Assembly (NCBI GenBank): GCA_964515005.1
Contig: CAZEVT010000002.1
Coordinates: 28,968 to 92,967 of the forward strand
DNA from: an uncultured Gammaproteobacteria bacterium
Lineage (GTDB): Bacteria > Patescibacteriota > Microgenomatia > UBA10105 > UBA927
DNA: 64,000 nucleotides
Reading direction: 5' to 3'
The notes under the pieces are model-generated. The model did not search any database. It was not told the origin of the DNA and saw nothing but the letters and a program-made list of their open reading frames with translations. Both the position numbers and the translations under genes were made by a program. Below are positions 4,657-19,457 of this stretch, one piece after another (position 1 is the stretch's first letter; each line of letters begins with the position of its first letter).

Positions 4657-5679
4657 CTATTTCTTCAGCGCCAAGCCCACGGCGACGCAAAAATTGGGTC
4701 CTTCCGCAGTCAAGACGTTAAACCGGGCGTCACGCGCAATGCCCACCCACGGGTTACCGAGTTGCACTTCTATCCCCAAGGTCTGGGCCAGATAGGTGAC
4801 CATCCCCGGAAGCCTCGCCGTTCCTCCGGAAAGGAGGACTGCCTGGACATGGTCATCTTTGTATTTTTCCTGATAAAAGGCAAGGGCCCTTTTGATCTCA
4901 TTGACCACCGTGTCCATAATGGGCTTCACCGCGGTGACGATCTTCCCCTCGAGTTTATCCGCCTGGAGTCCATACGTTTTTTTGTATTCCTCGGCCTGCG
5001 TTTCGTTAAAGTCCAATCCCTGGGCAAGGGCCCGCGTCAGGGCATCGCCTCCTGCCGAAAGCGACCGGGTAAATGCAAGAATGCCGTTTCGCACAATGGC
5101 CAAATCCGTCGTCTGGGCCCCCAAAGATACGATCATCATGCTTTTTATGCTTGGGGCAGACCGTGCAATTGCCCGCGAGGTTGCGATGATTTCTGTTTCC
5201 GCCGCGGCCGCCGTAAGCTCCGAAAGCTCCAAGATCGCAAGATATTTGTCCAAAAGCGCCTTCGGGGCGCCTACCAAGAGCACCTCCATTTTGTTTGTCC
5301 CGGTTTCGGCAGAGGTGCGAAGAATCGTATAGTCAACATTTACCTGATCCAAAGGGAGAGGAATATACTGTTCGGCCTCCCACTTAATGGCGGAGGCTAA
5401 CTCCCGGTCGGAAAGCGCGGGCACTTCGATAACCCGCGTAAACACTTTGGATTCGGGGAGCGCGATTTGAATATTCCTGCTTTTGGCCCCCGTGTCCTTC
5501 AGAAGTTTTTTTATTGCGGCAGCAACCGCCTGATTGTCCGCAGGCAGTGTGCTCGTTAATGCCTTGGGCGGCGTTGGGGTGCTTCCTGCCGCCATAAGAC
5601 CAACGCGCGGGCCATCCCATGCAAGCTCAATGAGCTTTATGGTGTGCGATCCGATATCCAGGCCAAGTGATAGGTTCAT
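4657..5679 (-). CDS. pilM: Type IV pilus assembly protein PilM (actin-like ATPase fold)
   Basis: N-terminus MNLSLGLDIGSHTIKLIEL and overall FtsA/PilM-like architecture, 340 aa. Confidence 0.85.
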   Translation of the reverse strand: MNLSLGLDIGSHTIKLIELAWDGPRVGLMAAGSTPTPPKALTSTLPADNQAVAAAIKKLLKDTGAKSRNIQIALPESKVFTRVIEVPALSDRELASAIKWEAEQYIPLPLDQVNVDYTILRTSAETGTNKMEVLLVGAPKALLDKYLAILELSELTAAAAETEIIATSRAIARSAPSIKSMMIVSLGAQTTDLAIVRNGILAFTRSLSAGGDALTRALAQGLDFNETQAEEYKKTYGLQADKLEGKIVTAVKPIMDTVVNEIKRALAFYQEKYKDDHVQAVLLSGGTARLPGMVTYLAQTLGIEVQLGNPWVGIARDARFNVLTAEGPNFCVAVGLALKK

Positions 5680-5691
5680 GTGGGCAGAATA

Positions 5692-6549
5692 TTACTCATG
5701 GTTAATTGATCCCTCGCTATATATGGCATTGTCAAAAATCGTTGCGGGCGCCGCATGTTGCTGATACACAAAAATCTTCCTGTTGACGCCGCTTTCTGTA
5801 GTTCCTACTGACTCGATGATCCTTCCCTGTACCGGCAGGGTCGAGAGTGGAATGACGGCAAAAAGCGCCGCGTTATAGACCGGTCTAACCCGCAGTGCAA
5901 TAAGCACATCTACCGCAGGATTGATGGTGGGTTCGAGAGTGGAAAACTGCATCGTCTGTCTATAGGCAGTTCCGGTCCCTGCCCCGCACCCGCCCACCGT
6001 CGCCGTCGGCACCCCAAATTTATTTACCCCCTGGCGCGCCGGGTCCGGATCATACGCTGCTTTGGCCACGCGGTAAGAATTGTCGCTCGTCTCGCGGTAG
6101 AGGACGGTCGCAACAATGGCGGCCATTGGCGACTCCTGGCTCCAGCAAACATCAATGGAGGGCGAAGTATAAAAGGGGGTCGCATCGTCAACCGTTCCGT
6201 CGGCATTGTGAGGAGCAAGCCAAATAGTTTCGGTTTCTTCCCTGGGCGTCTTTTGCTGATACACGAGGGGCTGAGACGCCTCACCGCTTATCGATGCTAC
6301 TGAAACCGCATAGGTAAGACCTAATTTCTCGTCCACCAGCAGGGCGCTTGCAACCCCACTTCGCAGCGCTTCCTCGACGCCTGCTTCAGCCGCTGAAAAG
6401 GCCCTCGCCGATTCTTCAATATTCCGCGTGACGGAAATATTGGTCGTGCCGCGGGAAATAAGCGACAAGCCTACCGTTGTTGCAATCGTAAGAACGAGTA
6501 GTGCAATGAGTGCCGCTTGCCCGGATTGAGAGCTACGAACTCTACGCAT
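5692..6549 (-). CDS. PilX-like minor pilin / pilus-associated protein
   Basis: N-terminus SGQAALIALLVLTIATTVGLSLISRG resembles the PilX_N hydrophobic segment. Lies directly upstream of pilM, and the rest is a secreted domain. Confidence 0.4.
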   Translation of the reverse strand: MRRVRSSQSGQAALIALLVLTIATTVGLSLISRGTTNISVTRNIEESARAFSAAEAGVEEALRSGVASALLVDEKLGLTYAVSVASISGEASQPLVYQQKTPREETETIWLAPHNADGTVDDATPFYTSPSIDVCWSQESPMAAIVATVLYRETSDNSYRVAKAAYDPDPARQGVNKFGVPTATVGGCGAGTGTAYRQTMQFSTLEPTINPAVDVLIALRVRPVYNAALFAVIPLSTLPVQGRIIESVGTTESGVNRKIFVYQQHAAPATIFDNAIYSEGSINHE

Positions 6550-6654
6550 ATATAACCATTGTAGTAAGCGGAAAAATATTTAGCAAGCGCTTCTTCTTTG
6601 AGTCACGGCTCACGGCTCTTTCCGCACTACAAAAGACATGGTATTATAAAATAT

Positions 6655-6885
6655 ATGAAACGAATAGCTTTTACACGTCATGCGAATGAAATGATCGTGC
6701 TTCGCCGTCTCAACAAGAAACTGATTGAGCAGTGCATTCGCCACCCTGCCGAAATCATACCCGCAAAAGAAAATAAATACGCATATGTCAAAGACTTAGG
6801 AAAAAATTATCTGAAAGTGATTATCGCGGATGAAAAACAAGCTCTTATAGTCGTCACAGCCTATTGGTTTGCAAAAAAAAGCTAA
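6655..6885 (+). CDS. DUF4258-family toxin (type II toxin-antitoxin)
   Basis: MKRIAFTRHANEMIVLRRL...LKVIIADEKQALIVVTAYW fits the DUF4258 pattern. Its stop overlaps the partner gene, and the region is low GC. Confidence 0.5.
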   Translation: MKRIAFTRHANEMIVLRRLNKKLIEQCIRHPAEIIPAKENKYAYVKDLGKNYLKVIIADEKQALIVVTAYWFAKKS

Positions 6886-6904
6886 ACAATATACCATACG
6901 AGCT

Positions 6905-7129
6905 ATGAAGGTTACCTATGATCCCGTGGCAGATGCCATGTACATCTATTTTTCTGATAAAAAAGCCAGCACGAAGACTGTAGAGGTTCGTGACGACCTT
7001 TTTGTGGACTATGCTGGGAATGAAATGATTGGTATTGAAATTACTGACGTTTCAGGTAAACTCCCCAAAAAAGACATCATGTCGGTGACCCTCTCCATTC
7101 CTCCCGCCGGTAAAATCTCCACGGTATAG
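6905..7129 (+). CDS. DUF2283-family antitoxin partner
   Basis: MKVTYDPVADAMYIYFSD...EMIGIEI is the DUF2283 signature. Sits immediately downstream of, and overlapping, the DUF4258 gene. Confidence 0.5.
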   Translation: MKVTYDPVADAMYIYFSDKKASTKTVEVRDDLFVDYAGNEMIGIEITDVSGKLPKKDIMSVTLSIPPAGKISTV

Positions 7130-7153
7130 CTTATCCACCAATCTAGAAATTTC

Positions 7154-8743
7154 TTACGGCGCCACCTCCCGCCATACGATGCGGGCGTCTTTGAGTTGGT
7201 CCGGCATGGTAATGAGGAATTGAGGTTCGTAGAGGAAGAGTTCAGCGGAGACCGTGTTGTTTTGCCCCAGGGTATCCAGATCCCGCTGCAGGGAAATGGA
7301 CCCGGCAACGAACATACCCCGTCCGACAAACCGCTCGTGACCTGAGCTAGTCGAGAGGCCGGTTGCAAATACCCCGGTGGGGTTCGTAATATAGACGCCC
7401 TCAACGACCGGCGCGCTGCTCGTGTACGGGACGCCGACGGTGGGGTCAACCGTGATATTGCCGTTGACCAGGAATGCCAGGAACCCGGTACCGGAAACGT
7501 TGAGATTGCCGCTAATTTTCAGGTCTCCGTCAACAAAAAAGATGAGCTTCTCCCCCGAGGGCACGAGCCAGTCTCCCGAGGTTTCCATGTCCCCGGTCAC
7601 GTAGTAGGGAATGGGACTGCCGTCTGCCTTGGTTTTGGGACCGGGCTGGTTAACCGGAGTGGTAGGCTGATCATAGTCAACGGCGATTGGCTCTCCACCA
7701 AACCTGCGGTAGAAATAGAGATAGTTGTCCCGGGGGCGTGCGCGGTCCTTTGCAAGCCACTGGGAGGAAGACACAAGGTTTTCCCCCGTGAGGAACTCAT
7801 CGCTGTCCAGGTCCACGGAGTCTCCGTAGGTGACGACCCCACCCGAAGCGGCGGGGCCATTGAGGACCAAGTGTCGGGGAATCGTCCCCACCGGCACCGA
7901 ATTGGTAATCGTACTCCCCCCGTACACGTCCCCGCCCGTAACTTGGGCCCAGGCCTCGCCCAGGGTGTATCCCAAATCAAACGAAAGCGTTTCTGCGTTG
8001 ACAAACGATGCGGTGAGTCCGGTACCGGTGAGTGGCGACGTACTCGTCCTTCGAAAGCAGGACGCTTGCAGGACCAAGCCTGCCGGAGCCGCCGGGAGAA
8101 TCGTATATGTCCGGGCTTGGGCATTGGGCCAGACGGCATAGGTGGTTCCGCTTTGCGGGTTGGCTCCTCCGAGCGACGGGCTGGTGGTGTAGGAGATGGG
8201 TGACACCGGCGACGTTGCCGCGTACACGGCGTTGCAGGTGGTGTCTCCCGTCCCTATATTCCATGCCCGGGCCCGGAGAGTACCCAAGGGAATGGGGGTG
8301 GGGGTAGGAGTGGGAGGGGTGATGGGGCGGCAGGTAGCATAGGTCACTGAAGACTGTTTACAGGGCCGAACGCCTTCTCCGCAGGAACAATTTGCGCTCC
8401 CTCCTCTGACCACGCCGTTGCCGCACACTTTCCCCCAGTGCCCGCAGCCATAACTCACCACGGACCAGTCAGGATATGTACCCGGCGGACAATCGCGGTA
8501 TACCTCGCAGGCGGGATCTTTCTTCGTAGGACCAGTACATCCGCAACATATTGATGGATTCCCATTAGGGGCAGTACACGCATACATATAACAACTCGTT
8601 CCTATCGGACACACAGATTGTTCGCAACCACATGCATAAACCTGTGACTCTGGAATAAAAAAAACCAAAATAAACGACAATACAATACACCCTTGAATAA
8701 CTTTTCTGAATAGATCGTTTTTAATAATGGTTATTTGACTCAT
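7154..8743 (-). CDS. Cys-rich secreted protein with a Pro/Thr linker and a large C-terminal domain (candidate pilus-associated adhesin)
   Basis: Signal/transmembrane segment CIVLSFILVFFIP, then about 30 Cys within ~110 aa (CGCEQSVCPIGTSC...CCGCTG...CSCGEG), a PTPTPTP linker and a ~380-aa Gly/Thr/Ser-rich domain. Lies between the pilins and the PilX-like gene. Confidence 0.5.
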   Translation of the reverse strand: MSQITIIKNDLFRKVIQGCIVLSFILVFFIPESQVYACGCEQSVCPIGTSCYMYACTAPNGNPSICCGCTGPTKKDPACEVYRDCPPGTYPDWSVVSYGCGHWGKVCGNGVVRGGSANCSCGEGVRPCKQSSVTYATCRPITPPTPTPTPIPLGTLRARAWNIGTGDTTCNAVYAATSPVSPISYTTSPSLGGANPQSGTTYAVWPNAQARTYTILPAAPAGLVLQASCFRRTSTSPLTGTGLTASFVNAETLSFDLGYTLGEAWAQVTGGDVYGGSTITNSVPVGTIPRHLVLNGPAASGGVVTYGDSVDLDSDEFLTGENLVSSSQWLAKDRARPRDNYLYFYRRFGGEPIAVDYDQPTTPVNQPGPKTKADGSPIPYYVTGDMETSGDWLVPSGEKLIFFVDGDLKISGNLNVSGTGFLAFLVNGNITVDPTVGVPYTSSAPVVEGVYITNPTGVFATGLSTSSGHERFVGRGMFVAGSISLQRDLDTLGQNNTVSAELFLYEPQFLITMPDQLKDARIVWREVAP

Positions 8744-8861
8744 CTATACCAAGTTTAAGCGTGACGATAACCAACGTCAAGAAGAGAGTATCACATATCG
8801 CGTTATTCTTTGAAATTAAATAGAAACGCTATGTTTTATCTAAAGAAGAATAGTCATCTGC

Positions 8862-9947
8862 TTAGGGGTTGCCTGTCTCGTAATATAGTTGAGTATTGGG
8901 CGGAGCCGGAAGCAAATCTCCAGTTTTACCATCTATCGTCATACCCGGAGGATATGGGACAAAAATCATTGTCCCTTCCGGAGCTGGTATAAAATAATAT
9001 CCCGCCACGTTTCCGCACATGCGGCAGTCTCCATCAGCATACCAATAGCCTGTTTCTCCCCGCGAAACTAATTGTGTAATAATAAATCCAGTCCCTTTAT
9101 CATTAAGGATCCATTGAGTTTTTGCCACCTCTTCAAATAATTTACCACCCTTCACATATGGTCCAACTGCGTGGGGCATTTGTAAATCTTCCTCTACTGA
9201 ATCTTGAGATAATTCGGGTTGCGGTAAAACATACCGCAAAGGAATTTCTCCTAGTCTTTTAGAATCTTCTATGGATCTATATATCTCTTTTGGTTGAGCT
9301 GATTCATTGTTACTCTTAGATAAGATCGCCACATTGGCTGCTTGAATCGGTTCCGACACCGGAATTTCTATAGTTGCAGGAGTAACTTTTAACCCACACG
9401 CAGCTAAGATAATGAGCGGCGATACGCGAACAGCAACTTTTGCCGTTAAACCGCTTATATCAAGTATTTTTGCGCTTGTTGGATCATCAGGATCTAACTC
9501 TTTTTGCAAGTAGGCACCGTATGCTTCAAACACATTTTGTGCAGTATCTGTTGCCTTTTTGGTTAATTCATGCGTTTCCCCATGAATTTTATGCGTCTGA
9601 GGTATGTTTGCAAGAGAGTCCAGAGCAAAATACTGAAGTGATGTTAAAGCGCTTGTTTGATCTGGTGTAAGCGCCTTGGGATTTGCGTATGCCCAACTCA
9701 GTTGATCCGACATCGTCTCAGGTTTTTTGTCTCCAGCGCGCAAAAGATGCATGTCATCTTCTGTGGCAGATAGGGGTCCAAAAAGTGAAAAAAGGGCTTC
9801 TGATGCGCGGGATCCACGCATTCCCTCCTTTTGGAAAATATTAAGGTGTTCTCGTATTGTCCGATCTCCGAGGCCTTTTGCTAAAGTAAATACAACCAAA
9901 TCTCCTGTGCCCTGGTCTGCTGACGGCATAAGTTCTGGCATATTCAT
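8862..9947 (-). CDS. Hypothetical protein (low-GC island)
   Basis: 361-aa ORF with no recognisable motifs. Local GC is clearly below that of the flanking pilus genes. Confidence 0.4.
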   Translation of the reverse strand: MNMPELMPSADQGTGDLVVFTLAKGLGDRTIREHLNIFQKEGMRGSRASEALFSLFGPLSATEDDMHLLRAGDKKPETMSDQLSWAYANPKALTPDQTSALTSLQYFALDSLANIPQTHKIHGETHELTKKATDTAQNVFEAYGAYLQKELDPDDPTSAKILDISGLTAKVAVRVSPLIILAACGLKVTPATIEIPVSEPIQAANVAILSKSNNESAQPKEIYRSIEDSKRLGEIPLRYVLPQPELSQDSVEEDLQMPHAVGPYVKGGKLFEEVAKTQWILNDKGTGFIITQLVSRGETGYWYADGDCRMCGNVAGYYFIPAPEGTMIFVPYPPGMTIDGKTGDLLPAPPNTQLYYETGNP

Positions 9948-10122
9948 ATGTACCCTATAGTATCATATTTGCACATTACTGTCAATCAACTGTACAGTGT
10001 CTACGGGCTCTTTTGCAACTACAAGGCTTCTTTAGGTATAGTATAGTATCTGTTTCTTGTCAAGCACATTGTATGCTTCAAAAATCTTAGCAAACATGCG
10101 GCCTTAAAATCTATATTACTCC

Positions 10123-10647
10123 TTGAAACTTATCAAAAATAAGAGCTACACTGATTATACAATGAATTGGAGAGTCATGACCTTGTTTGTATTCATTTTT
10201 CTCATCATTATGGCTTTGGGGGCATATTATTTCCGAACTTCAATATTCCCTCAAGGTCCGTTTAATACTATATTAGAATATAAACAGGCAATCGGTTTAA
10301 TTCAGTCAAACTGCAATGAAACAATGTTCAGTGACGACCAAAGTAAAATTGATTATTTTTTAGGACTTTATTCCTCATTTGGAAGTGACATACGTATCGA
10401 CGAAGGGTCAGGCTATTTTGTATCTCCCTCAAATAAACACTTTACATTACAGTTTTTCAATGTGGAAGAAGAGACAGTCATTGCCAAACGGCAACTCATC
10501 CTCTTCCCCTCGCCTACTGAGCAAAAATCCTATTGCTGGATAGCAGAAATTGAAGACACTCCTGGCATTGGCCGCGCAGCATATGAAACCCAATCTGGAG
10601 AAATAAAAGTGATTCGGGTAAAAAATCTACCTGCATTTTCTCCATAA
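10123..10647 (+). CDS. Hypothetical membrane-anchored protein
   Basis: N-terminal transmembrane helix (VMTLFVFIFLIIMALGAYYF); AT-rich; opposite strand to the surrounding pilus operon. Confidence 0.4.
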   Translation: MKLIKNKSYTDYTMNWRVMTLFVFIFLIIMALGAYYFRTSIFPQGPFNTILEYKQAIGLIQSNCNETMFSDDQSKIDYFLGLYSSFGSDIRIDEGSGYFVSPSNKHFTLQFFNVEEETVIAKRQLILFPSPTEQKSYCWIAEIEDTPGIGRAAYETQSGEIKVIRVKNLPAFSP

Positions 10648-10693
10648 AACATTTTTGCTTTTTGGTCACCGTATTGGTATATTTTAAATATAT

Positions 10694-11083
10694 ATGTCTA
10701 CATCGCTCAAAGTTTTTTTTACGATATTTACCGTGTTTATCGTTGGGCTAAGCGCCTATCTTGGATACGTTTATTTTTTCCGTTCGCCAAACCTCAATCC
10801 ATCTTTGAGTCAACCAGCCGCGGGTTCTGAGTCTCAGGGGACGGACTATCAAGGTCAGATACTTTGCATCCATGATACCAAAAAAGGTACATCGCTTTCG
10901 GCGTGTGACAGTTTTGGCATGATGATGAGTGATGACACATACTATGAACTGATATTGGGCAACGGGGTACGCGCAACCGGCTACACGCAGATGGAAAAAG
11001 TAAAGGTTTCAGGAGTACTCACGCCGGGGACCTCGCCGCTGGGGCTTGACGGCACCCTGACCGTCTCCAAAATCAGCAAATAA
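10694..11083 (+). CDS. Hypothetical membrane-anchored protein
   Basis: N-terminal transmembrane helix (VFFTIFTVFIVGLSAYLGYVYFF); AT-rich; paired with the preceding gene. Confidence 0.4.
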   Translation: MSTSLKVFFTIFTVFIVGLSAYLGYVYFFRSPNLNPSLSQPAAGSESQGTDYQGQILCIHDTKKGTSLSACDSFGMMMSDDTYYELILGNGVRATGYTQMEKVKVSGVLTPGTSPLGLDGTLTVSKISK

Positions 11084-11090
11084 CCAAACA

Positions 11091-11645
11091 TTAGTTTCTC
11101 GGAGTTACCAAGCTTTGGAACTGCCACCGCGCTGCTTCAAGCGTGCCCTGGCCTTCTCCCAGCTGTCCCAAATAGAAACTGATGGTCGTTGATGATGCCA
11201 CACCCGCGCTTGTGGGACACGAGAACGTAAGGGAATTATCTGCACAGCTAAAATCTCCCGACGCGCTCAGAGTTACCGAGCCATCGGTTAAATAGGAGAT
11301 TGTGCCTGTTGCCGATACCGAGGCGATACGCGCCGCAGTCCCATCCGATACACACGTGACCGTTGTCGTTGCGTTATCCGCATTACGGAATACCGCAGAC
11401 GGCGTCGTTACCTCCGCTGCATCGCAGACGGTCTCGACTGCCACGGCGTCCCGTATGAGCCGCTCAAGCACTCCCAGGGCAAACTCCCCGCTGCTTTTCA
11501 CGTTCTCAAGGGTACCTACTTTTTTGTTGACCCGGGTCGTCGTAAACAGGACCTGCGTGATAAGCGTACTGACTACGGCCAGTATCCCCACGGAAATAAG
11601 CACCTCAATAAGCGTAAATCCCCGGAACTTGAATATTTTTTTCAT
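11091..11645 (-). CDS. Type IV pilin-like (prepilin) protein
   Basis: Class III signal peptide MKKIFKFRG|FTLIEVLISVGILAVV, with Glu at position +5. Confidence 0.65.
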   Translation of the reverse strand: MKKIFKFRGFTLIEVLISVGILAVVSTLITQVLFTTTRVNKKVGTLENVKSSGEFALGVLERLIRDAVAVETVCDAAEVTTPSAVFRNADNATTTVTCVSDGTAARIASVSATGTISYLTDGSVTLSASGDFSCADNSLTFSCPTSAGVASSTTISFYLGQLGEGQGTLEAARWQFQSLVTPRN

Positions 11646-11646
11646 A

Positions 11647-12108
11647 TCATCTCCACTGAGTCAAATAGGTCTCAAGCTCCACAGAATTTCCCGACGTTCC
11701 GGTCTCTCCCCACGATACGTCAACGCGTACGGACATTTTTTCGACTGGATTAGTTGGGCTCTCCGGGATAAGCCGCAAGGTCACCATGCGGATATACAGG
11801 TCGCCGATATTCTGTGCACTGCAGGTCGTACTCGTTGCCACGAATTCGGCGTTTTCTCCAACACAATACCCCGTTTCTACTGCACCCATTTCCGCAAATT
11901 TATTCCACGAATCATCCCGAAGTTGTCGCGCCAGCTCTATCCCTTCGGCCGCGTACTTGGTGGCAGTGCTGCGCACCTGCGTGTCCTGGGCACTCCCCAA
12001 AACTGCCGTCGTCCCCGCAATGATGCCGACGGCCAGAACAACGACAACGCCGATAACCACGACCATCTCCACCAGTGACTGCCCTTGTTGATACAGGTAT
12101 TTTTTCAT
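11647..12108 (-). CDS. Prepilin-like minor pilin
   Basis: QQG|QSLVEMVVVIGVVVVLAVGII is a degenerate prepilin leader with Glu at +5. Tightly packed with the neighbouring pilin genes. Confidence 0.5.
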   Translation of the reverse strand: MKKYLYQQGQSLVEMVVVIGVVVVLAVGIIAGTTAVLGSAQDTQVRSTATKYAAEGIELARQLRDDSWNKFAEMGAVETGYCVGENAEFVATSTTCSAQNIGDLYIRMVTLRLIPESPTNPVEKMSVRVDVSWGETGTSGNSVELETYLTQWR

Positions 12109-12111
12109 GCG

Positions 12112-12606
12112 TTATGGCACCTCGTCCACAATACCGGACGACAGCACGGAAAGCCTCGCCGTGTTTGTGTTTGCCGAAATTTCGATCACCTGCGCCACCG
12201 ACGCACCCCGGTCAAGCGGCAGGAAAAGAAACATCTGGGGCAGGAGAGTAAACATCACCCCCGGAGGAAGCGTATAGGTTTCTTTTATCCCTACCTCTTC
12301 TTGCACTCCTTGCGCCTCGCAGAGGGCAGTTGCGGTATAGGTGTTCGTCGTTGGAAATTCGACTCTGTACCCCACGAGCGTGTCGCACCCTTCCGGCTTG
12401 ATCCCGGACGCGGCACGTGTACGCGCTGCCCCGAGATTACTCTTGAGCGTGAGCGCGGCTTGAGTGACGGTTTGTTTATCGTTAAATCTACTGTACCCCG
12501 CAATCAGAAGTCCTGATAAAACAAGAAGGAGAGTGACGCTTACCAGTATTTCAATAAAGGTAAAACCGGCGCGCTGGCAGGATGGCTTAGGGGTTCTTAA
12601 TTCCAT
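12112..12606 (-). CDS. Type IV pilin-like protein
   Basis: QRAG|FTFIEILVSVTLLLVL prepilin motif. Start placed at the internal Met (MELRTPKP), giving a short leader. Confidence 0.6.
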   Translation of the reverse strand: MELRTPKPSCQRAGFTFIEILVSVTLLLVLSGLLIAGYSRFNDKQTVTQAALTLKSNLGAARTRAASGIKPEGCDTLVGYRVEFPTTNTYTATALCEAQGVQEEVGIKETYTLPPGVMFTLLPQMFLFLPLDRGASVAQVIEISANTNTARLSVLSSGIVDEVP

Positions 12607-13057
12607 AATTGCACTCTGCAGGAAGCTGGGTAACGCCAAGCGGTGCACATTCGTTTTTCCCGGCCTGCGTTTCTATCCAGCCGCAGAGGCAATAGGAGTA
12701 AAAATTCGTACCCGTTCCGCCTACCACGGGATTATAGAAATACGTCTTGATCGCCAAAGGGACACTTTGGGGATCCATAGGAACAGACGGAAGGTACGTG
12801 GGGACCAAAGGCCCAGTCCCATCCCCGGAATCGAGTCCGGTTAATGCCACAAATCCGGTAACGGTCCCCGGATATACGCCGTTGTCAGCCCGGTAGAGCT
12901 CAAGGGCGCTTCGCACCTGTTCAAGGTCGGAAACGCGCTTGGCGTCGCGGGACCGTTTGTTGACCGATGCATACGATACCATGCCGATTGCAGATAAAAC
13001 AGATACGATGGTTGCGGCAACCAGTATTTCGATAAGGGTAAAGCCTTTATTTCTCAT
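12587..13057 (-). CDS. GspG/PulG-like pseudopilin / type IV pilin
   Basis: MRNKG|FTLIEILVA followed by DAKRVSDLEQVRSALELYRADNGVYP, the GspG-type signature. Confidence 0.7.
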   Translation of the reverse strand: MRNKGFTLIEILVAATIVSVLSAIGMVSYASVNKRSRDAKRVSDLEQVRSALELYRADNGVYPGTVTGFVALTGLDSGDGTGPLVPTYLPSVPMDPQSVPLAIKTYFYNPVVGGTGTNFYSYCLCGWIETQAGKNECAPLGVTQLPAECNYGIKNP

Positions 13058-13467
13058 TGCAGATTGTGCACGCAAAAGAACCCTTTGTATGCGCCCGATG
13101 CCGTGCCGCCGCCACAGTCTACATCTGTGTTGGTTTCACCCTCAAGGCCGGCGCACAAACAATAACTTGCGGCCGCGCATTGACTCCTTCCGGGAGCATC
13201 GGTATAGAGCTCACCTGATTTGGGGTCTTTGGGAATCCCACCGGGCAAATACGCCGCGCTTATGGCACAGCTTAATGGGTAATTACTATTGTTGTCTGCG
13301 TAATACTGCTCCCAGGCGTTTTGCATAGCCTTCATGTCACTCCGTCTTCTGGTGTCGCGGGTTTTCAGTTGCGCGGAGGCATACGATACCGCGCTCACCG
13401 ACACCAAAATACCGATAAGGGCGATGACGATAAGGAGTTCAATAAGGGTAAAGCCTTTTCTTTTCAT
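13054..13467 (-). CDS. Type IV pilin (GspG-like)
   Basis: MKRKG|FTLIELLIVIALIGIL followed by DMKAMQNAWEQYYADNNSNYP, with C-terminal Cys pairs. Confidence 0.7.
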   Translation of the reverse strand: MKRKGFTLIELLIVIALIGILVSVSAVSYASAQLKTRDTRRRSDMKAMQNAWEQYYADNNSNYPLSCAISAAYLPGGIPKDPKSGELYTDAPGRSQCAAASYCLCAGLEGETNTDVDCGGGTASGAYKGFFCVHNLQ

Positions 13468-14180
13468 ACGAATCTATTCCACCAGGTCAGTATATCGTGT
13501 CCCCATAGATAAGCGACAGCGGTACCTAAAACAAGAAACGGGCCAAAGGCGATTTTACTTTTCCATCCCTTTTTCCCAACCAACATCAGTATGACACCGA
13601 CAAAAGCCCCGGTCAAGAATGCGATATAAAAGGCAACAACCACCGCAGGGAAGCCTAAGAGAAGCCCCATAAGAAACGCGAGCTTCACATCACCAAACCC
13701 CATACCCCGGCCGCGGGTGGCGGCCCACAGGATATACAAAAAGGCAAAACTACCGAGGGCAGGAAGGATATGTATTCCCATGGCAAGAGTGGCGAATAGG
13801 CCGACGACAATCATGCTGTCCGGAATAATTTGCTCCTTGAGATCGGAAACGAAAATCACGAGGAACGAAGAAAACAACACATAGAGCGGCAGCGGAGAAT
13901 GAGAGGAGTACAAATATAAAAATCCAAGCGACGTTGCCAGTTCCACGAGGGGATATTGGATAGATAATGGCTTGTGACAACGAAGGCACCTGCCGCCCTG
14001 GAGAACAAACGATAGGACGGGGATAAGTTCAAACCAACGGAGAACTTTTTTACAATGGTCACAGTGGGAGCGTCCCCACAAGACGGATTCTCCGCGCGAG
14101 CCGCGATCGGCAAGCACGTTAAGAAAGGAACCAACGCAGAGGCCGAAGAAAGAAACAAGAGTGGCAGCAATCGCCATCAC
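13464..14180 (-). CDS. pilD: Prepilin peptidase (A24 family)
   Basis: CDHC...CLRC zinc-binding tetracysteine plus multi-transmembrane A24 peptidase core, 238 aa. Confidence 0.85.
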   Translation of the reverse strand: MMAIAATLVSFFGLCVGSFLNVLADRGSRGESVLWGRSHCDHCKKVLRWFELIPVLSFVLQGGRCLRCHKPLSIQYPLVELATSLGFLYLYSSHSPLPLYVLFSSFLVIFVSDLKEQIIPDSMIVVGLFATLAMGIHILPALGSFAFLYILWAATRGRGMGFGDVKLAFLMGLLLGFPAVVVAFYIAFLTGAFVGVILMLVGKKGWKSKIAFGPFLVLGTAVAYLWGHDILTWWNRFV

Positions 14181-14689
14181 TTAATGCACCAATAGCAATC
14201 CTTGGCGCCCGCCGGAGTTTCACTTTTACAGCCGTTATCCAGCACGCCTGCTATATCGTATTTTGTATTGGGGTCGGCCTGAAATGATTTGGATGTGGGC
14301 ATGTAGCAGACGGCGGCCGCACTATCAACCGCGCTTCCCGTCACAAAAACCTTATCAAGCTTCCCGGCCTGAATGGTCATAAAATCACTCCGCAGCTCTC
14401 CCGCTGCGATCATAGCAGTTATTGCCGCAGTCACCGTGCCGCCGCTTAAGGCCTCTTTATTGGGGTCATTGCCGGTCCAGGGCATCTCATTTTTCACCGA
14501 GTAGTACCTGATAATCGCCGTCTGGACCTGGTTGACCAGATCCCGGGTTCCGGTGTCGGTACCTTTTTTGAGCTGTTCAAACGGGTCGATGGCGCCGATG
14601 AGACCAACGGCCAAGGCTCCGAGAAGCGCAATCACGATAAGAAGTTCAATGAGCGTAAATCCTTTACTTCGGGAAAAATAATTTCTCAT
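14177..14689 (-). CDS. pilA: Type IV pilin, candidate major pilin
   Basis: SRSKG|FTLIELLIVIALLGALA leader. First pilin gene after pilC, with a C-terminal disulfide pair (CKSETPAGAKDCYWC). Confidence 0.7.
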   Translation of the reverse strand: MRNYFSRSKGFTLIELLIVIALLGALAVGLIGAIDPFEQLKKGTDTGTRDLVNQVQTAIIRYYSVKNEMPWTGNDPNKEALSGGTVTAAITAMIAAGELRSDFMTIQAGKLDKVFVTGSAVDSAAAVCYMPTSKSFQADPNTKYDIAGVLDNGCKSETPAGAKDCYWCIK

Positions 14690-14706
14690 ATACATTAGGT
14701 GTAGCA

Positions 14707-15918
14707 TCATTTGAACTGTGATGTCAAGTTATAAATCGGGGTGATGACGGAAATGACGATAAATCCAACGCCGACTCCCAAGACTACCATGATAATAGGC
14801 TCGATTGCGGTCGTGAGGCCTTTGACGAGTATTTCCGACTCGCTCTGGAAATAGTGCGACAGCTTCATGAGCGTCTCGTCAAGCTTGCCGGTTTCCTCAC
14901 CGACCTTCATCATCTGGGATACAATCGGCGGAAATACGTCGTGCTGGGCAAATGAGTCGCCCAAAGGCAGCCCTTTCTCAACTTTTTTTGCAATATCGGC
15001 AATCGCGGTCCTAAAAAGGACATTGGCGAGCGAATCTTTGAGAATCTGGAGTCCGTCCAGTATATGAATGCCGGACCCGATGAGCATCCCTAAGGTCCTC
15101 GTAAACTCAACAAGAATGATCTTTTTGGTAAGTTCGCCAAACAAAGGAATCTTGAGAACCAAGCGGTCGATTGTCTGCTGTCCCATGGCCGTTGCCCGCC
15201 ATGTTCTGAATCCCCAGGCGCCCGCGCCCGCGCCAATGATCACGAGCCACCAGAACCGGACAAAGAATCCGGAAACGGACATGAGGAGTCGCGTCGTCCA
15301 GGGAAGCGAAATGTTAAAGTCGCGGTACAAATCCGTCAGCTTGGGGACGACAACCACCATCATGACGCCAACGACCCCCACCATACCGATAAGAATGATG
15401 ATCGGGTAGATCATCGCACCCGACACCTTGCTCCTAAACTCACGCTGGGCCTCCAGGGAATCCGCAAGCCGGGTCAACACCTGATCCAGGGTGCCTGACG
15501 CTTCTCCTGCACGGACAAGGGCGAGAAATGTGCCGGAAAAGTACTTCGGATATTTGGCAAGGGCGTCTCCCAGGTTGCCGCCGCCCACGATTTGATGTTC
15601 CACATCAACCAAGAGCTCGGCAAACACTTTGTTGGTCGCCTGCGTCCGAAGTATGGTGAGCGCTTCCGGAAGTGATAGGCCCGCCGTGACCATGGTAGAG
15701 AGCTGGCGGGTAAAATTGGCAATGTCGCTCGCGCTTACCCTTTTGAACATCTGCTCAAAGCTCGCAAGCGAAAGTCCTTCCTTGGACTCCGCGATCGAAA
15801 CGACAAACAACTGCTTGTCATGAAGCAGGCGGACGGCGACTTGCGAATTTGGCGCTTCAACCAACCCCGAAATAATCTGGGATTGCGCATTTTGTGCTTT
15901 GTACTGAAAAACAGCCAT
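14707..15918 (-). CDS. pilC: Type IV pilus platform protein PilC (GspF family)
   Basis: Two GspF repeats and three transmembrane segments, 403 aa. Directly downstream of pilT. Confidence 0.9.
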   Translation of the reverse strand: MAVFQYKAQNAQSQIISGLVEAPNSQVAVRLLHDKQLFVVSIAESKEGLSLASFEQMFKRVSASDIANFTRQLSTMVTAGLSLPEALTILRTQATNKVFAELLVDVEHQIVGGGNLGDALAKYPKYFSGTFLALVRAGEASGTLDQVLTRLADSLEAQREFRSKVSGAMIYPIIILIGMVGVVGVMMVVVVPKLTDLYRDFNISLPWTTRLLMSVSGFFVRFWWLVIIGAGAGAWGFRTWRATAMGQQTIDRLVLKIPLFGELTKKIILVEFTRTLGMLIGSGIHILDGLQILKDSLANVLFRTAIADIAKKVEKGLPLGDSFAQHDVFPPIVSQMMKVGEETGKLDETLMKLSHYFQSESEILVKGLTTAIEPIIMVVLGVGVGFIVISVITPIYNLTSQFK

Positions 15919-15937: not shown

Positions 15938-16993
15938 TTATCCTTGCTTTATGAGGCGCCCGAGCTCTTCCGGACGGAGGGCATAGCTTTGGGCTACCTC
16001 CAGCGTGATTTTTCCCGCCTTTACGGCTTTGGCAAGGGCGGTTTCCAGGGTCTCCATCCCCAGCTCCGCCGACGTTTGGATGACGTTGTCTATAAGATGC
16101 GACTTGCCGTCGCGGATCGTGGTTTTGATAGCAGGCGTGGCCGTCATGATTTCCGTAACCGGAATGCGACCTCCGGATACGGCGGGAATAAGCCGCTGGG
16201 ACAAAACGCCCTCAATAACCGCCGCAAGCTGGAGGCGAATTTGCACCTGTTGATTTTCCGGAAACACGTCGACGATGCGGTCAATCGTTTGGGCCGCTGA
16301 ATTGGTGTGGAGGGTCGCAAACACCAGGTGGCCGGTTTCCGCAATCGTGAGGGCCGCCGAAATAGTCTCGAGATCGCGCATTTCACCAATGAGGACAACG
16401 TCGGGGTCTTCCCGCAGGACACTTCGGAGGGCAACCGTCCAGGAGTGCGTATCCTGATGCATCTCGCGCTGGGAAATAATGGAGAGTCCCGGCGGATAGA
16501 CGTATTCAATCGGGTCTTCAATCGTCACCACATGGACGGCTTTTGTTTGATTGATGGTCTGGATCATCGACGCCAGCGTCGTTGACTTCCCGTGTCCCGT
16601 GGGCCCGGTCACCAGGATAAACCCCTGCCGCAGTTTGACGAATTCATGACAAATTTGGGGCAAACCCAACTCTTCAAGCGAAAGAATTTTTTCGGGAATG
16701 AGCCGGAAGTCCACAGCCACGGATGCTTTTTGGTAATAGACGTTTGCGCGAAACCGATTTTTGCCAAAGGGGACGGAAAAATCTATTTCCTTATTGGTCA
16801 AAAACAAGTCTTTTTCCTCGGGAGTAAACACCGAAAAAACAAGCTCTTGGGTGTCGGTGGGCGTAAGAGGCGCGGCCCCGGCAAGCGGCGAAAGCTTGCC
16901 CGAAACGCGCACGACCGGCGGGTAGCCGGCGATAAGATGAAGATCAGAGGCGGTGAGCCGCAGCGTTTCTGAAAATAATTGTTTTACATCCAT
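15938..16993 (-). CDS. pilT: Twitching-motility retraction ATPase PilT
   Basis: Walker A GPTGHGKST, Asp box and Walker B (VVLIGEMRD) in a 351-aa protein with no N-terminal GSPII domain, which is PilT-like. Confidence 0.9.
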   Translation of the reverse strand: MDVKQLFSETLRLTASDLHLIAGYPPVVRVSGKLSPLAGAAPLTPTDTQELVFSVFTPEEKDLFLTNKEIDFSVPFGKNRFRANVYYQKASVAVDFRLIPEKILSLEELGLPQICHEFVKLRQGFILVTGPTGHGKSTTLASMIQTINQTKAVHVVTIEDPIEYVYPPGLSIISQREMHQDTHSWTVALRSVLREDPDVVLIGEMRDLETISAALTIAETGHLVFATLHTNSAAQTIDRIVDVFPENQQVQIRLQLAAVIEGVLSQRLIPAVSGGRIPVTEIMTATPAIKTTIRDGKSHLIDNVIQTSAELGMETLETALAKAVKAGKITLEVAQSYALRPEELGRLIKQG

Positions 16994-18749: not shown

Positions 18750-18791
18750 AGTATTTATTATTGATGCTTTTGGCGTATAATGCAAGGGTTC

Positions 18792-19457
18792 ATGCATGCA
18801 TTTCTTATTCTTGGAAAGAACAAAGAAGATCGAGACCGCGAAATCGCCAGTCGAATCGCAGCCTGGAAAATTTCTTCGTGGGACACGATCCGGCTGACAT
18901 CAGAGTCCCCATCAATCGGAATAGAATCGGTTCGTGATTTTGTCCGCGCCCTTACCCAATCGCCCCTCAACTCTCCTTTTAAAGTCGGCGTTATAGAGGA
19001 AATAGAACGCCTCACAACAGAAGCACAAAACGCACTTTTAAAAACCCTCGAGGAGCCGCCGCCGCATACCTATCTTCTTGCCGAAACAAGTGCAGTGGAG
19101 TCTCTTCTTCCCACCATCCTTTCACGATTCCTTCTCGTCAATCTCGGCGCAGGAGTCGCATCAAATGAAGAAAAAAACACAACAAAGCAAATGCTCATTG
19201 CTATTGCGGGATCGGGGATTGCCAACCGTTTGCAGCGTGTCGACGAACTTGCGCGAAGTCGCGAAGATGGCAGGCGACTCGTTGACGCGATGCTGACGAC
19301 CATCAGTACCATGCTCCATGAAAAAGATCCCGTTATACCAACCCACGCGCTTACCCGCTTCACACGAAAACTCCTTGCCGCCCGATCACAACTGGCCGTC
19401 AACGTCAACCCGCGACTAGTTCTGGACAACGTATTTATTTCGATTTCAGAGTCATAA
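18792..19457 (+). CDS. holB: DNA polymerase III delta-prime-like clamp-loader subunit
   Basis: Has the Walker B/sensor-1 region T(x)n NALLKTLEEPP and SRFLLV. No intact Walker A, as expected for delta-prime. Confidence 0.55.
   Translation: MHAFLILGKNKEDRDREIASRIAAWKISSWDTIRLTSESPSIGIESVRDFVRALTQSPLNSPFKVGVIEEIERLTTEAQNALLKTLEEPPPHTYLLAETSAVESLLPTILSRFLLVNLGAGVASNEEKNTTKQMLIAIAGSGIANRLQRVDELARSREDGRRLVDAMLTTISTMLHEKDPVIPTHALTRFTRKLLAARSQLAVNVNPRLVLDNVFISISES

What the first reader, a model, noticed from the sequence alone, without database searches (positions are those of the whole stretch)
8760..11090. Low-GC island of three uncharacterised proteins interrupting the pilus operon
The stretch from about 8.76 to 11.09 kb is visibly more AT-rich than the flanking pilin genes. 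It encodes a 361-aa minus-strand protein with no signal peptide and two plus-strand membrane-anchored proteins of 174 and 129 aa that face the opposite way to the operon. None has a recognisable family. The composition and strand inversion suggest recent horizontal insertion. The small anchored proteins resemble immunity or effector pairs or phage-exclusion factors.
Basis: seen in the sequence. Interest (0 to 1): 0.5.

Follow-up and report, generated by a model that had tools for sequence, protein, structure and literature searches.

The report
Variable accessory module inside pilus operon
The AT-rich stretch is real, but it is an old, lineage-restricted accessory gene set sitting in a variable slot of a type IV pilus operon, built around an undescribed family of probable surface proteins with swappable outer domains, and not a freshly acquired foreign island.

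Summary
Window 8744-11090 has 41.2% GC against 50.1% for the window and is the window's strongest tetranucleotide outlier. The three ORFs are real genes with homologues and match no Pfam, NCBIfam, PADLOC or PHROGs family.

The pilus operon runs on the minus strand, so the 361-aa gene (X361) is co-oriented with it. X361 recurs, always just upstream of a Cys-rich 529-aa-type gene (Y529), in the same slot (last minor pilin | PilX) of related operons (L001, L103). About 24 other related operons have that slot empty. Low GC3 is gene-specific and shared by orthologues, and no repeats, tRNA or integrase flank the region. Recent horizontal insertion is therefore not supported.

X361 belongs to a small family of about 25 representatives. 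It has a conserved cytoplasmic N-domain with no fold relative, an internal hydrophobic segment ending in a lipobox-like Cys, a Pro/Thr-rich linker and hypervariable exported C-domains. It is expressed from a conserved leaderless-type promoter.

X174 and X129 are small membrane-anchored proteins that travel with X361/Y529 in several relatives.

The most likely role is a pilus-associated surface or host-recognition module. This is inferred, not shown.

A DUF4258/DUF2283 toxin-antitoxin pair is inserted next door.

The parts
11091..11645 (-). pil184: last minor pilin of the operon. It forms the upstream edge of the variable slot.
   Evidence: Pfam N_methyl 28.3 bits, above the 21.2-bit cut-off, and TIGR02532. 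In about 24 related operons its orthologue is followed within 250 bp by PilX.
10694..11083 (+). X129: 129-aa protein with an N-terminal membrane anchor and a C-terminal domain of about 85 aa that is probably outside the cytoplasm. It is inverted relative to the operon and has ordinary composition (GC3 0.52).
   Evidence: Homologues at 59-75% identity in L003, L004, L005 and L006. The family aligns with the two small proteins flanking the X361-family gene P0011 in L094 (hhalign probability 95%, E = 2e-8; hmmsearch E = 1e-4). Hydrophobic segment at aa 5-23.
10123..10647 (+). X174: 174-aa ORF whose likely true start is the ATG at 10162 or 10177. It has an N-terminal membrane anchor and a domain of about 130 aa. 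It is inverted relative to the operon and has low GC3 (0.35).
   Evidence: Homologues at 28-42% identity in L003, L004, L005, L006 and L007, always beside X129 and Y529 and/or X361. JGI calls a 156-aa product. Orthologue GC3 is 0.29-0.35.
9948..10122 (.). Divergent AT-rich promoter region (GC 0.36) between X361 and X174.
   Evidence: Plus-strand candidates lie at 10013-10042 and 10057-10085. The minus-strand promoter is listed as the next part.
9957..9985 (-). Conserved sigma-70-like promoter with an extended -10 element: TTGACA-N17-(TG)ATACTAT. It ends 9 nt before the X361 ATG, which implies a leaderless or near-leaderless mRNA.
   Evidence: 10 of 12 consensus matches plus TG. It occurs once in the 64-kb window, with 0.02 expected by chance. 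The same element at the same distance precedes X361-family genes in L001, L005, L093, L094, L097, L102 and L103, and non-homologous partner genes in L022, L006 and L010.
8862..9947 (-). X361: 361-aa protein co-oriented with the pilus operon. It is a member of an undescribed family with a conserved N-domain, an internal lipobox-like anchor, a linker and a variable C-domain.
   Evidence: 26 representatives among 1.84 billion proteins (24 match the N-domain). No Pfam hit in 27 members.
9498..9890 (-). X361 N-terminal domain (about aa 20-150): helical with one beta-hairpin, probably cytoplasmic.
9396..9452 (-). X361 aa 166-184: hydrophobic segment ending in the lipobox-like motif L-A-A-C, followed by G.
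   Evidence: C184 and G185 are invariant among close homologues. A lipobox-like Cys lies at aa 174-192 in about 19 of 27 members, followed by a Pro/Thr/Ser/Ala-rich stretch. The family profile's only PDB match is the signal peptide and lipobox region of LpqN, E = 0.016.
8865..9167 (-). X361 C-terminal domain core (about aa 261-361): an orphan domain, probably exported, that is shuffled between proteins.
   Evidence: It recurs in P0009, P0011 and P0013 (45-55% identity to the window in alignment A8). P0013 carries it directly behind a classical N-terminal RR/lipobox signal. L001, L002 and others have unrelated C-domains. No Pfam or PDB hit.
7154..8743 (-). Y529: secreted protein with a Cys-rich region, a Pro/Thr linker and a large C-terminal domain. 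It is GC-rich and is the constant partner encoded immediately downstream of X361-family genes.
   Evidence: Homologues at 37-65% identity lie next to X361-family genes in L001, L002 and L103, and Cys-rich Y529-type N-termini follow X361-family genes in L093 and L096. Only a sub-threshold DUF7305 hit, 20.3 bits against a 27-bit cut-off. GC3 is 0.63-0.76 in the window, L003 and L094.
6655..6885 (+). DUF4258-family toxin (RelE/barnase-like fold class), inverted relative to the operon and low in GC.
   Evidence: Pfam DUF4258, 30 bits against a 25-bit cut-off.
6905..7129 (+). DUF2283-family antitoxin partner.
   Evidence: Pfam DUF2283, 53.9 bits against a 23-bit cut-off.
6558..6586 (-). Promoter-like site upstream of PilX. 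It is the possible restart point for the PilX-PilM-PilN-PilO unit.
   Evidence: TTGCTA-17-TACAAT, 9 of 12 matches. This is a consensus match only.
5692..6549 (-). PilX285: PilX-like non-canonical minor pilin. It forms the downstream edge of the variable slot.
   Evidence: Weak PilX_N and GspK N-terminal matches. Orthologues at 31-53% identity lie directly upstream of PilM in most of the related loci long enough to show it.

Best explanation
The low-GC stretch is part of a lineage-restricted accessory module of the type IV pilus locus. It occupies a variable slot between the last minor pilin (pil184) and PilX. The whole filled slot spans 6550-11090, wider than the reported island.

The core of the module is a two-gene unit transcribed in the operon's direction from its own conserved, leaderless-type promoter: X361 followed by Y529.

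X361 is read as a bitopic, lipoprotein-like envelope protein. Its conserved helical N-domain of about 150 aa stays in the cytoplasm. A hydrophobic segment ending in a lipobox-like Cys crosses the membrane. A Pro/Thr-rich linker then presents a small C-terminal domain on the cell surface, and that domain is swapped between family members.

Y529 is a secreted Cys-rich protein. It sits where PilY1-type non-pilin tip or adhesin proteins are encoded in other pilus systems.

X174 and X129 are small membrane-anchored proteins that probably face outward. They are transcribed divergently from the same AT-rich promoter region and travel with X361/Y529 in several relatives.

The most likely function is surface or host recognition working with the pilus, with X361's variable domain as a specificity element.

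Shown: the gene structures, synteny, patchy distribution, family architecture, promoter conservation and shared compositional signature.

Inferred: the membrane topology, any lipidation or cleavage, transcription-unit boundaries, and the adhesion or recognition role.

My confidence is about 0.8 that this is an old pilus-associated accessory module and not a recent foreign island. It is about 0.35 for the specific recognition or adhesion function.
For: Operon and orientation. PilB, PilT, PilC, the major pilin, PilD, five minor pilins, then X361, Y529, PilX, PilM, PilN and PilO are all on the minus strand.

Synteny.
- L001: pilins, X361 homologue, a 238-aa gene, Y529 homologue, PilX, PilM.
- L103: pilins, toxin-antitoxin genes, X361-family P0017, Y529 homologue at 44% identity, then PilX and PilM.
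- X361-family genes are followed by a Y529-type gene in L002 and by Cys-rich Y529-type N-termini in L093 and L096.

Variable slot. The pil184-to-PilX gap is under 250 bp in about 24 related operons. It is 4.2-6.5 kb with a Y529-like gene in L001, L022 and L066, and about 9.5 kb in L103.

Age. The window, L001 and L016 form a PilM clade in which all three carry the module. The GC3 signature is shared by orthologues.

Architecture. The N-domain occurs in 24 representatives 200-676 aa long with unrelated C-termini. A lipobox-like Cys lies at aa 174-192 in about 19 of 27 members, followed by a Pro/Thr/Ser/Ala-rich linker. There is a weak profile hit to the LpqN signal and lipobox region. P0013 carries the window-type C-domain behind a classical signal peptide. 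The N-domain is modelled at pLDDT above 90.

Promoter. It is conserved at the same distance from the ATG in at least 8 loci and occurs once in the window.

Small genes. X174 and X129 lie next to Y529 and/or X361 in L003/L004, L005, L006 and the window. X129-like paralogues flank the X361-family gene in the distant L094.

Parallel design. The non-homologous partners upstream of Y529-like genes in L010 and L022 also have a hydrophobic segment, a lipobox-like Cys and a Pro/Thr-rich linker, and the same promoter type.

Experimental context. In Saccharibacteria, large non-canonical PilX-type proteins are the candidate pilus adhesins for host binding (PMC11623550).
Against: - No experimental or homology-based functional annotation exists for X361, X174, X129 or Y529.
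- The N-domain has no fold relative, and the C-domain model is unusable (pLDDT below 50).
- The lipobox lies about 180 residues into the protein. That is not where Lgt/Lsp substrates normally carry it, and no Lgt or LspA gene is in the window.
- In L003/L004 the Y529-X174-X129 cluster is not next to PilX/PilM at all; UvrC lies on one side and holin_4_2/CofD/SecG on the other. Linkage to the pilus is therefore not obligatory.
- In L003/L004 and L005, X129 is followed, co-oriented, by holin_4_2, CofD and SecG. It could belong functionally to that operon instead.
- Why low GC3 persists in X361 and X174 is unexplained. The L103 X361 homologue has normal GC3 of 0.50.
- The PilM tree is a quick neighbour-joining tree without support values.
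Confidence: 0.55

Rival explanations
1. One reading: a recently acquired horizontal island that interrupts the pilus operon and encodes a defence, phage-exclusion or effector/immunity function.
For: - Strong compositional deviation.
- Very narrow taxonomic distribution.
- The slot is a hotspot. It holds a DUF4258/DUF2283 toxin-antitoxin pair in the window, AbiEii in L022, and HepT/MntA plus AbiEii in L103.
- The two small genes are inverted and are absent at this position in L001.
Against: - X361 and Y529 are syntenic in L001 and L103, and all members of the window's PilM clade carry the module.
- The low GC3 is shared by orthologues 28-60% identical, so it cannot be an unameliorated recent import.
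- X129 has normal composition.
- No flanking repeats, tRNA, integrase or transposase.
- No PADLOC or PHROG hits.
Confidence: 0.1
2. X174 and X129 have nothing to do with the pilus. They are envelope genes of the neighbouring housekeeping operon (X174-X129-holin_4_2-CofD-SecG in relatives) and ended up beside the pilins through a chromosomal rearrangement. This rival concerns the two small genes only and can hold alongside the main reading of X361/Y529.
For: In L003/L004 and L005, X129 is followed, co-oriented, by holin_4_2 (11-108 bp away), CofD, SecG, a substrate-binding protein and a MacAB-like transporter. X129 has host-like composition. In the window X129 ends 7 bp from the convergent pil184 stop codon, which looks like a breakpoint.
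Against: - X174 and X129 stay next to Y529 and/or X361 in every locus where they are seen.
- In the distant L094 locus, two X129-like paralogues flank the X361-family gene with no holin operon nearby.
- X174 shares the low-GC3 signature of X361 and not that of the housekeeping genes.
Confidence: 0.25
3. The X361 family is a polymorphic-toxin-like or contact-dependent effector system. The conserved N-domain handles trafficking, the variable C-domain is the toxin, and X129-type small anchored proteins are the matching immunity factors.
For: The design of a conserved N-terminus with a hypervariable C-terminus fits. The window-type C-domain co-occurs with X129-type genes in three lineages (window, L005 with a partial and only loosely similar C-domain, and L094). 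L001, which has a different C-domain, has a different small anchored gene of 238 aa instead.
Against: - No known toxin domain in any of 27 members.
- The gene immediately downstream is always the conserved Y529, not a variable immunity gene.
- X129 and X174 also occur without X361 in L003 and L006.
- The context of P0013 shows no X129-like neighbour, though that contig is short.
Confidence: 0.08
4. X361 is a transmembrane regulator of the anti-sigma or one-component sensor type. Its outer domain senses a signal and its cytoplasmic N-domain controls pilus gene expression or pilus activity.
For: The bitopic layout has a conserved cytoplasmic domain and a variable outer domain. The gene sits inside a pilus operon.
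Against: - The N-domain resembles no known anti-sigma, DNA-binding or signalling fold.
- No sigma factor or regulator gene is adjacent.
- The strict pairing is with a secreted Cys-rich protein, not with a regulator.
Confidence: 0.07

Closest known systems
Minor-pilin/PilY1-type accessory genes of type IV pilus operons (for example P. aeruginosa fimU-pilVWXY1E; PilX1/PilX2 of Saccharibacteria TM7x, PMC11623550)
   Same: These are non-pilin or non-canonical proteins encoded among the minor pilins. They are secreted or surface-located, variable between lineages, and proposed to give the pilus its binding specificity. Y529 and PilX285 occupy the equivalent position.
   Different: X361 and Y529 have no detectable sequence or fold similarity to PilY1, PilC or the TM7x PilX C-domains. 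X361 has a large cytoplasmic domain and a lipobox-type anchor, which is not a feature of PilY1-type proteins. The module has its own promoter and is absent from many sister operons.
Gram-positive and mycobacterial surface lipoproteins with Pro/Thr-rich linkers (for example LpqN, 6e5d/6e5f)
   Same: A hydrophobic segment ends in L-x-[AG]-C and is followed by a Pro/Thr-rich linker and a globular exported domain. The only PDB sequence match of the family profile is to this region of LpqN, E = 0.016.
   Different: In X361 the signal-like segment starts about 165 residues from the N-terminus, behind a conserved folded domain. It is not within the first 40 residues or so. Lipidation and cleavage are untested.
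Polymorphic toxin and hypervariable surface-protein modules (conserved N-terminus, swapped C-termini; for example the Thermococcales hypervariable module, PMC8416519)
   Same: The N-terminal part is conserved, the C-terminal domains are unrelated and shuffled, and small variable neighbouring genes are present.
   Different: There are no toxin domains and no immunity gene immediately downstream. The invariable downstream partner is Y529.
Genomic islands and integration hotspots
   Same: Composition is atypical, distribution among related operons is patchy, and toxin-antitoxin or Abi genes accumulate in the same slot.
   Different: There is no integrase, tRNA, or direct or inverted terminal repeats. 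The core genes are syntenic and compositionally similar in diverged relatives.

Membership tests
Type IV pilins / pseudopilins | N-terminal class III signal (G|F/M-x-x-x-E) with a hydrophobic helix; Pfam N_methyl / TIGR02532 | tested here: not met
   X361, X174 and X129 give no N_methyl or TIGR02532 hit, whereas the flanking pilins do. None of the three has a GFxxxE motif in its N-terminus.
Bacterial lipoproteins (Lgt/LspA substrates) | Lipobox [LVI][ASTVI][GAS]C at the end of a hydrophobic segment | tested here: met
   L-A-A-C at aa 181-184 of X361. An analogous motif is present in about 19 of 27 family members. C184 and G185 are invariant among close homologues.
Bacterial lipoproteins (Lgt/LspA substrates) | The signal peptide is N-terminal, with the Cys within roughly the first 15-40 residues | tested here: not met
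   The Cys lies at residue 184, behind a folded domain of about 150 aa. P0013, which carries the same C-domain, does have a classical N-terminal signal.
Bacterial lipoproteins (Lgt/LspA substrates) | Diacylglyceryl modification and signal peptidase II cleavage; Lgt and LspA present in the genome | not testable with these tools
   No Lgt or LspA signature was found in the 64-kb window. The rest of the genome was not available.
Recently acquired genomic island | Atypical base composition and codon usage | tested here: met
   GC 0.412 against 0.501. Tetranucleotide z = 4.1. GC3 is 0.33 and 0.35 for X361 and X174, but 0.52 for X129.
Recently acquired genomic island | Mobility hallmarks: flanking direct repeats, tRNA target, integrase or transposase | tested here: not met
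   No convincing flanking repeats. The only tRNA is at 52.2 kb. The nearest recombinase is at 35.3 kb.
Recently acquired genomic island | Absent from close relatives at the same position | tested here: not met
   X361 and Y529 are present in the same slot in L001 and L103, and Y529 is present in L016. This feature is met only for X174/X129, which are absent from that position in L001.
Known anti-phage defence systems (PADLOC) / phage proteins (PHROGs) | HMM match to a defence or phage family | tested here: not met
   Zero hits at E <= 0.1 for all three proteins.
Polymorphic toxin systems | Conserved N-terminal region with variable C-terminal domains | tested here: met
   The N-domain is shared by 24 representatives whose C-termini are unrelated.
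Polymorphic toxin systems | The C-terminal domains belong to toxin families, and the cognate immunity gene lies immediately downstream | tested here: not met
   No Pfam toxin domain in 27 members. The downstream gene is the conserved Y529.
PilY1/PilC-type pilus tip adhesins (considered for Y529) | Non-pilin secreted protein encoded with the minor pilins | tested here: met
   Y529 has an N-terminal hydrophobic signal and lies between the minor pilins and PilX.
PilY1/PilC-type pilus tip adhesins (considered for Y529) | Sequence membership (PilY1/PilC C-terminal beta-propeller family) | tested here: not met
   Only sub-threshold DUF7305 hits, 19.5-20.3 bits against a 27-bit cut-off, and no PilY1/PilC family hit in 11 homologues. 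There is no PDB sequence match.
Diversity-generating retroelement targets | Template/variable repeat pair and a reverse transcriptase nearby | tested here: not met
   No repeat pair of 40 nt or more involves X361 or Y529 anywhere in the window.
DUF4258/DUF2283 toxin-antitoxin pair (neighbouring insertion at 6655-7129) | Adjacent small genes matching both Pfam families above the gathering score | tested here: met
   DUF4258 scores 30 bits against a cut-off of 25. DUF2283 scores 53.9 bits against a cut-off of 23.

The most novel reading that the evidence does not exclude
The X361 family would be a new class of pilus-coupled surface proteins in uncultivated ultrasmall bacteria. A conserved cytoplasmic domain precedes an internal lipoprotein-type signal and would dock the protein at the pilus machinery, or be split off by signal peptidase II. 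The outer domain is exchanged like a cassette. Together with the Cys-rich partner Y529 it would set which host or surface the cell recognises. X129-type small anchored proteins would be domain-specific partners.
Probability: 0.22. Interest if true: 0.7.

Novelty: new variant of a known kind. Interest (0 to 1): 0.45.

Why it matters
The relatives come from groundwater and sediment metagenomes and look like members of the candidate phyla radiation. That placement is inferred from the sources of the related contigs and was not tested. In the cultivated members of that group, type IV pili are central to finding and binding host bacteria (PMC11623550), yet the molecules that give specificity are mostly unknown.

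This analysis marks a defined variable slot in one family of pilus operons. It also marks a recurrent two-gene unit with its own conserved promoter, whose first protein has exchangeable outer domains. That makes it a concrete candidate specificity determinant that could be tested by deletion or domain swapping.

The layout 'folded cytoplasmic domain, then lipoprotein-type signal' is also unusual for protein export. If the Cys really is lipidated, it would widen the known substrate range of the lipoprotein pathway.

More generally, the case shows that a sharp GC dip with strand inversion is not enough to call a recent horizontal transfer.

Tried and rejected
1. Pfam, NCBIfam, PADLOC and PHROGs scans of the three proteins found nothing. 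Pfam on 27 X361-family members and on the C-domain alignment also found nothing.

2. AlphaFold2 with a three-sequence alignment was unusable (pLDDT 31). With 27 sequences only the N-domain was resolved.

4. A metagenome scan with the X361 alignment found nothing. The GTDB scan with Y529 found only 3 loci.

5. No flanking direct or inverted repeats stood out from chance-level short matches. No DGR-type repeats were found.

6. I tested whether the non-homologous partner proteins upstream of Y529-like genes in distant loci are remote X361 relatives. BLAST and an N-domain HMM say no.

7. I tested whether X174, X129, the 238-aa family (L001/L022) and the 138/164/183-aa family (L003/L006) are related to each other. 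Only the link between X129 and the L094 small proteins is supported.

8. Cluster look-ups returned no names or organism labels.

9. The window has no Lgt or LspA gene.

10. Literature searches for DUF7305, and for a lipobox placed behind a long N-terminal domain, returned nothing relevant.


Full report
OBSERVATION

The reported AT-rich stretch is real. Window 8744-11090 has 41.2% GC against 50.1% for the whole 64-kb window (1-kb windows: mean 0.501, SD 0.040). The 2.3-kb segment 8501-10800 is the strongest tetranucleotide outlier in the window, z = 4.1.

At gene level the deviation is synonymous. GC3 is 0.33 for the 361-aa gene (X361, 8862-9947, minus strand) and 0.35 for the 174-aa gene (X174, 10123-10647, plus strand). 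The mean over 64 genes is 0.529 with SD 0.086. GC1 and GC2 are normal. The 129-aa gene (X129, 10694-11083, plus strand) is compositionally ordinary (GC3 0.52).

All three ORFs have homologues in other assemblies, so they are genes and not chance ORFs. The identical arrangement was assembled independently in a JGI metagenome and in an SRA run (L008, L009). None of the three matches Pfam, NCBIfam, PADLOC or PHROGs.

CONTEXT

The surrounding genes form a type IV pilus operon on the minus strand:
- PilB 17028-18797
- PilT 15938-16993
- PilC 14707-15918
- a major-pilin-like gene 14177-14710
- prepilin peptidase 13464-14180
- five minor pilins, 11091-13467
- then X129 and X174 on the opposite strand
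- X361
- a 529-aa Cys-rich protein (Y529, 7154-8743)
- a second low-GC gap
- a PilX-like protein 5692-6549
- PilM 4657-5679
- PilN-like and PilO-like genes

X361 is therefore co-oriented with the operon. Only the two small genes are inverted.

RELATED LOCI

The closest X361 homologues share only the N-terminal 200 residues or so (51-60% identity).

L001 is a syntenic pilus operon. It runs minor pilins, X361 homologue, a 238-aa anchored protein, Y529 homologue, PilX, PilM (75% identical), PilN, PilO, then convergent TrmD. It has no X174 or X129.

L103 shows the same operon. Its slot between the last minor pilin and PilX is about 9.5 kb. It holds HepT/MntA and AbiEii toxin-antitoxin genes, the X361-family member P0017 (N-domain HMM E = 3e-65), a Y529 homologue (44% identity, E = 1e-100) and a few other genes.

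A scan anchored on PilM returned 80 related operons.
- In about 24 of them the orthologue of the last minor pilin is followed within 250 bp by PilX.
- In L001, L022 and L066 the gap is 4.2-6.5 kb and contains a Y529-like gene.
- None of the 80 carries a detectable X361, X174 or X129.

On a quick PilM neighbour-joining tree the window groups with L001 and L016, and all three carry the module. That clade is sister to an empty-slot clade, and elsewhere filled and empty states are interleaved.

The position is thus a variable slot. The real filled segment in the window is 6550-11090, and GC-rich Y529 is part of it.

THE SMALL GENES

X174 and X129 homologues occur in only a few relatives, and always beside Y529 and/or X361.
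- L005 has X361(-), X174(+), X129(+), as in the window, but followed by holin_4_2, CofD and SecG.
- L003/L004 have UvrC, Y529(-), 138 aa(-), X174(+), 164 aa(-), X129(+), holin_4_2, CofD, SecG.
- L006 has Y529(-), X174(+), 183 aa(-), X129(+).

In the distant L094-L096 loci the X361-family gene P0011 is flanked by two small anchored paralogues. They match the X129 family by profile comparison (hhalign probability 95%, E = 2e-8; hmmsearch E = 1e-4).

The linkage of X129-type genes to X361/Y529 therefore recurs across considerable divergence. The outer flanks differ from locus to locus, which shows repeated rearrangement around the block.

COMPOSITION IN RELATIVES

The signature is gene-specific and conserved.
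- X361 homologues have GC3 of 0.33-0.39 in the window, L001, L002 and L005.
- X174 homologues have GC3 of 0.29-0.35 in the window, L003, L005 and L006.
- Y529 is GC-rich, with GC3 of 0.63-0.76 in the window, L003 and L094.

These orthologues are only 28-60% identical at protein level. Their synonymous sites should be saturated, so the low GC3 cannot be the unameliorated trace of a recent import into this genome.

No flanking repeats beyond chance-level short matches, no tRNA and no recombinase adjoin the region. The L103 homologue has normal GC3 (0.50). Why the window's subclade keeps these genes AT-rich at third positions remains unexplained.

WHAT X361 IS

An exhaustive HMMER search of 1.84 billion representatives found 26 proteins.
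- 24 share the N-terminal region (about aa 3-200) and range from 200 to 676 aa, with unrelated C-terminal parts.
- The window's C-terminal domain (aa 211-359) recurs in P0009, P0011 and P0013.

The family layout has four parts.
- A conserved N-domain of about 170 aa.
- A hydrophobic segment ending in a lipobox-like L-x-[AG]-C, usually followed by G or S. This is LAAC-G at aa 181-185 in the window. The Cys lies at aa 174-192 in about 19 of 27 members.
- A stretch rich in Pro, Thr, Ser and Ala.
- A hypervariable C-terminal region.

The family profile's only match among PDB sequences is the signal peptide, lipobox and linker of the mycobacterial lipoprotein LpqN. It is weak, E = 0.016.

P0013 carries the window-type C-domain directly behind a classical N-terminal twin-arginine/lipobox signal (…TRREFLGLMGTGFLAVFC). 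This argues that the C-domain works outside the cytoplasm.

No template/variable repeat pair exists in the window, so a diversity-generating retroelement is not involved.

PROMOTER

Just upstream of X361 lies TTGACA-N17-(TG)ATACTAT on the minus strand (9985-9957). It matches 10 of 12 consensus positions and has an extended -10 element. It ends 9 nt before the ATG. The motif occurs once in the window, against 0.02 expected by chance.

Essentially the same element, at the same distance from the start codon, precedes several other genes:
- X361-family genes in L001, L005, L093, L094, L097, L102 and L103
- P0013
- the non-homologous genes occupying the X361 position upstream of Y529-like genes in L022, L006 and L010

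The L010 and L022 partners also have a hydrophobic segment with a lipobox-like Cys followed by a Pro/Thr-rich stretch.

I infer that 'lipoprotein-like partner followed by Y529-like' is an autonomous transcription unit with a leaderless or near-leaderless mRNA.

A weaker promoter-like site precedes PilX (6586-6558). The pilus operon is therefore probably split into three units by the two antisense insertions. This is inferred and was not measured.

SECOND INSERTION

The low-GC gap 6550-7153 between Y529 and PilX holds a plus-strand DUF4258 toxin (6655-6885, 30 bits against a 25-bit cut-off) and a DUF2283 antitoxin (6905-7129, 53.9 bits against a 23-bit cut-off). Together with the AbiEii, HepT/MntA and 23S-IVP-type genes in the slots of L022 and L103, this shows that the slot collects small selfish modules.

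INTERPRETATION

The best-supported reading is that the reported 'island' is part of an old, patchily distributed accessory module of the pilus locus.
- X361 is read as an N-in, C-out bitopic or lipoprotein-like protein that presents an exchangeable outer domain.
- Y529 is a secreted Cys-rich protein in the genomic position of PilY1-type tip proteins.
- X174 and X129 are small outward-facing anchored proteins that are divergently transcribed.

In Saccharibacteria, large non-canonical PilX-type proteins are the candidate adhesins of the host-binding pilus (PMC11623550). By analogy, I think surface or host recognition is the most likely role. This is inference only (about 0.35).

Several alternatives remain.
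- A defence, immunity or effector module lacks any positive evidence but is not excluded.
- The 'polymorphic toxin with X129 as immunity' variant is attractive in form. It is contradicted by the absence of toxin domains and by the invariant downstream partner.
- X174 and X129 may belong functionally to the holin_4_2-CofD-SecG operon that follows them in L003 and L005. In that case their position here would be a rearrangement scar (about 0.25).

VERDICT

The 'recent horizontal insertion' reading is not supported. 'Uncharacterised' stands. The finding is moderately interesting for three reasons: the variable slot, an undescribed protein family with an unusually placed lipoprotein-type signal, and a conserved dedicated promoter. 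All three are testable leads for pilus specificity in uncultivated bacteria.

Noticed in passing
window 6655-7129 (+): A DUF4258 toxin and DUF2283 antitoxin pair, both above Pfam cut-offs, is inserted antisense between Y529 and PilX in a second low-GC gap (GC 0.40).
   Followed up: yes
window 20498-23722 (+): GyrB is interrupted by an intein (Intein_splicing domain, aa 451-869). This coincides with the low-GC dip at about 22.0-23.0 kb.
   Followed up: partly
window 45006-45068 and 45788-45850: 63-nt direct repeats, 87% identical, bracket a 205-aa AbiEii-type toxin gene (45057-45674, minus strand). This may be a duplication created by insertion of that module.
   Followed up: no
window 40731-42437 (-): A 568-aa protein with low GC3 (0.37) and no Pfam family lies next to a TGT (queuine tRNA-ribosyltransferase) gene at 39898-40728. 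It is part of a wider low-GC tract at about 40.2-43.5 kb containing several orphan ORFs.
   Followed up: partly
window 35275-36291 (-): A tyrosine recombinase (Phage_integrase, 116 bits, with an N-terminal SAM-like domain). It could be XerC/D-type or belong to a mobile element.
   Followed up: no
window 9954-9965 (-), and the same element in L001, L005, L093, L094, L097 and L103: The conserved -10 region reads GATACTATAGG(G). Its 'ACTATAGGG' core happens to equal the initiation region of the phage T7 promoter. A properly spaced TTGACA -35 element makes a sigma-70-type promoter the simpler reading.
   Followed up: partly
L022 8533-8892 and 3988-4668; L103 3096-6072: The same operon slot in relatives carries a 23S-rRNA-IVP/bAvd-like four-helix protein, AbiEii toxins and a HepT/MntA pair. 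The slot is a collecting point for small selfish or defence-type modules.
   Followed up: partly
L003 6551-10384 (GCA_040960765.1, 440-kb contig): The Y529-X174-X129 cluster sits between UvrC and holin_4_2/CofD/SecG, with no PilX or PilM nearby. In some genomes the block is therefore detached from the pilus assembly genes.
   Followed up: partly
L006 1746-2187: The X129 homologue is split into two overlapping ORF pieces. It is either a frameshifted pseudogene or an assembly error.
   Followed up: no
L094 31-783 (-): A 250-aa product combines a GIY-YIG nuclease domain with a pilin N-terminal methylation motif and T2SSG. It may be a fusion or a gene-calling artefact.
   Followed up: no
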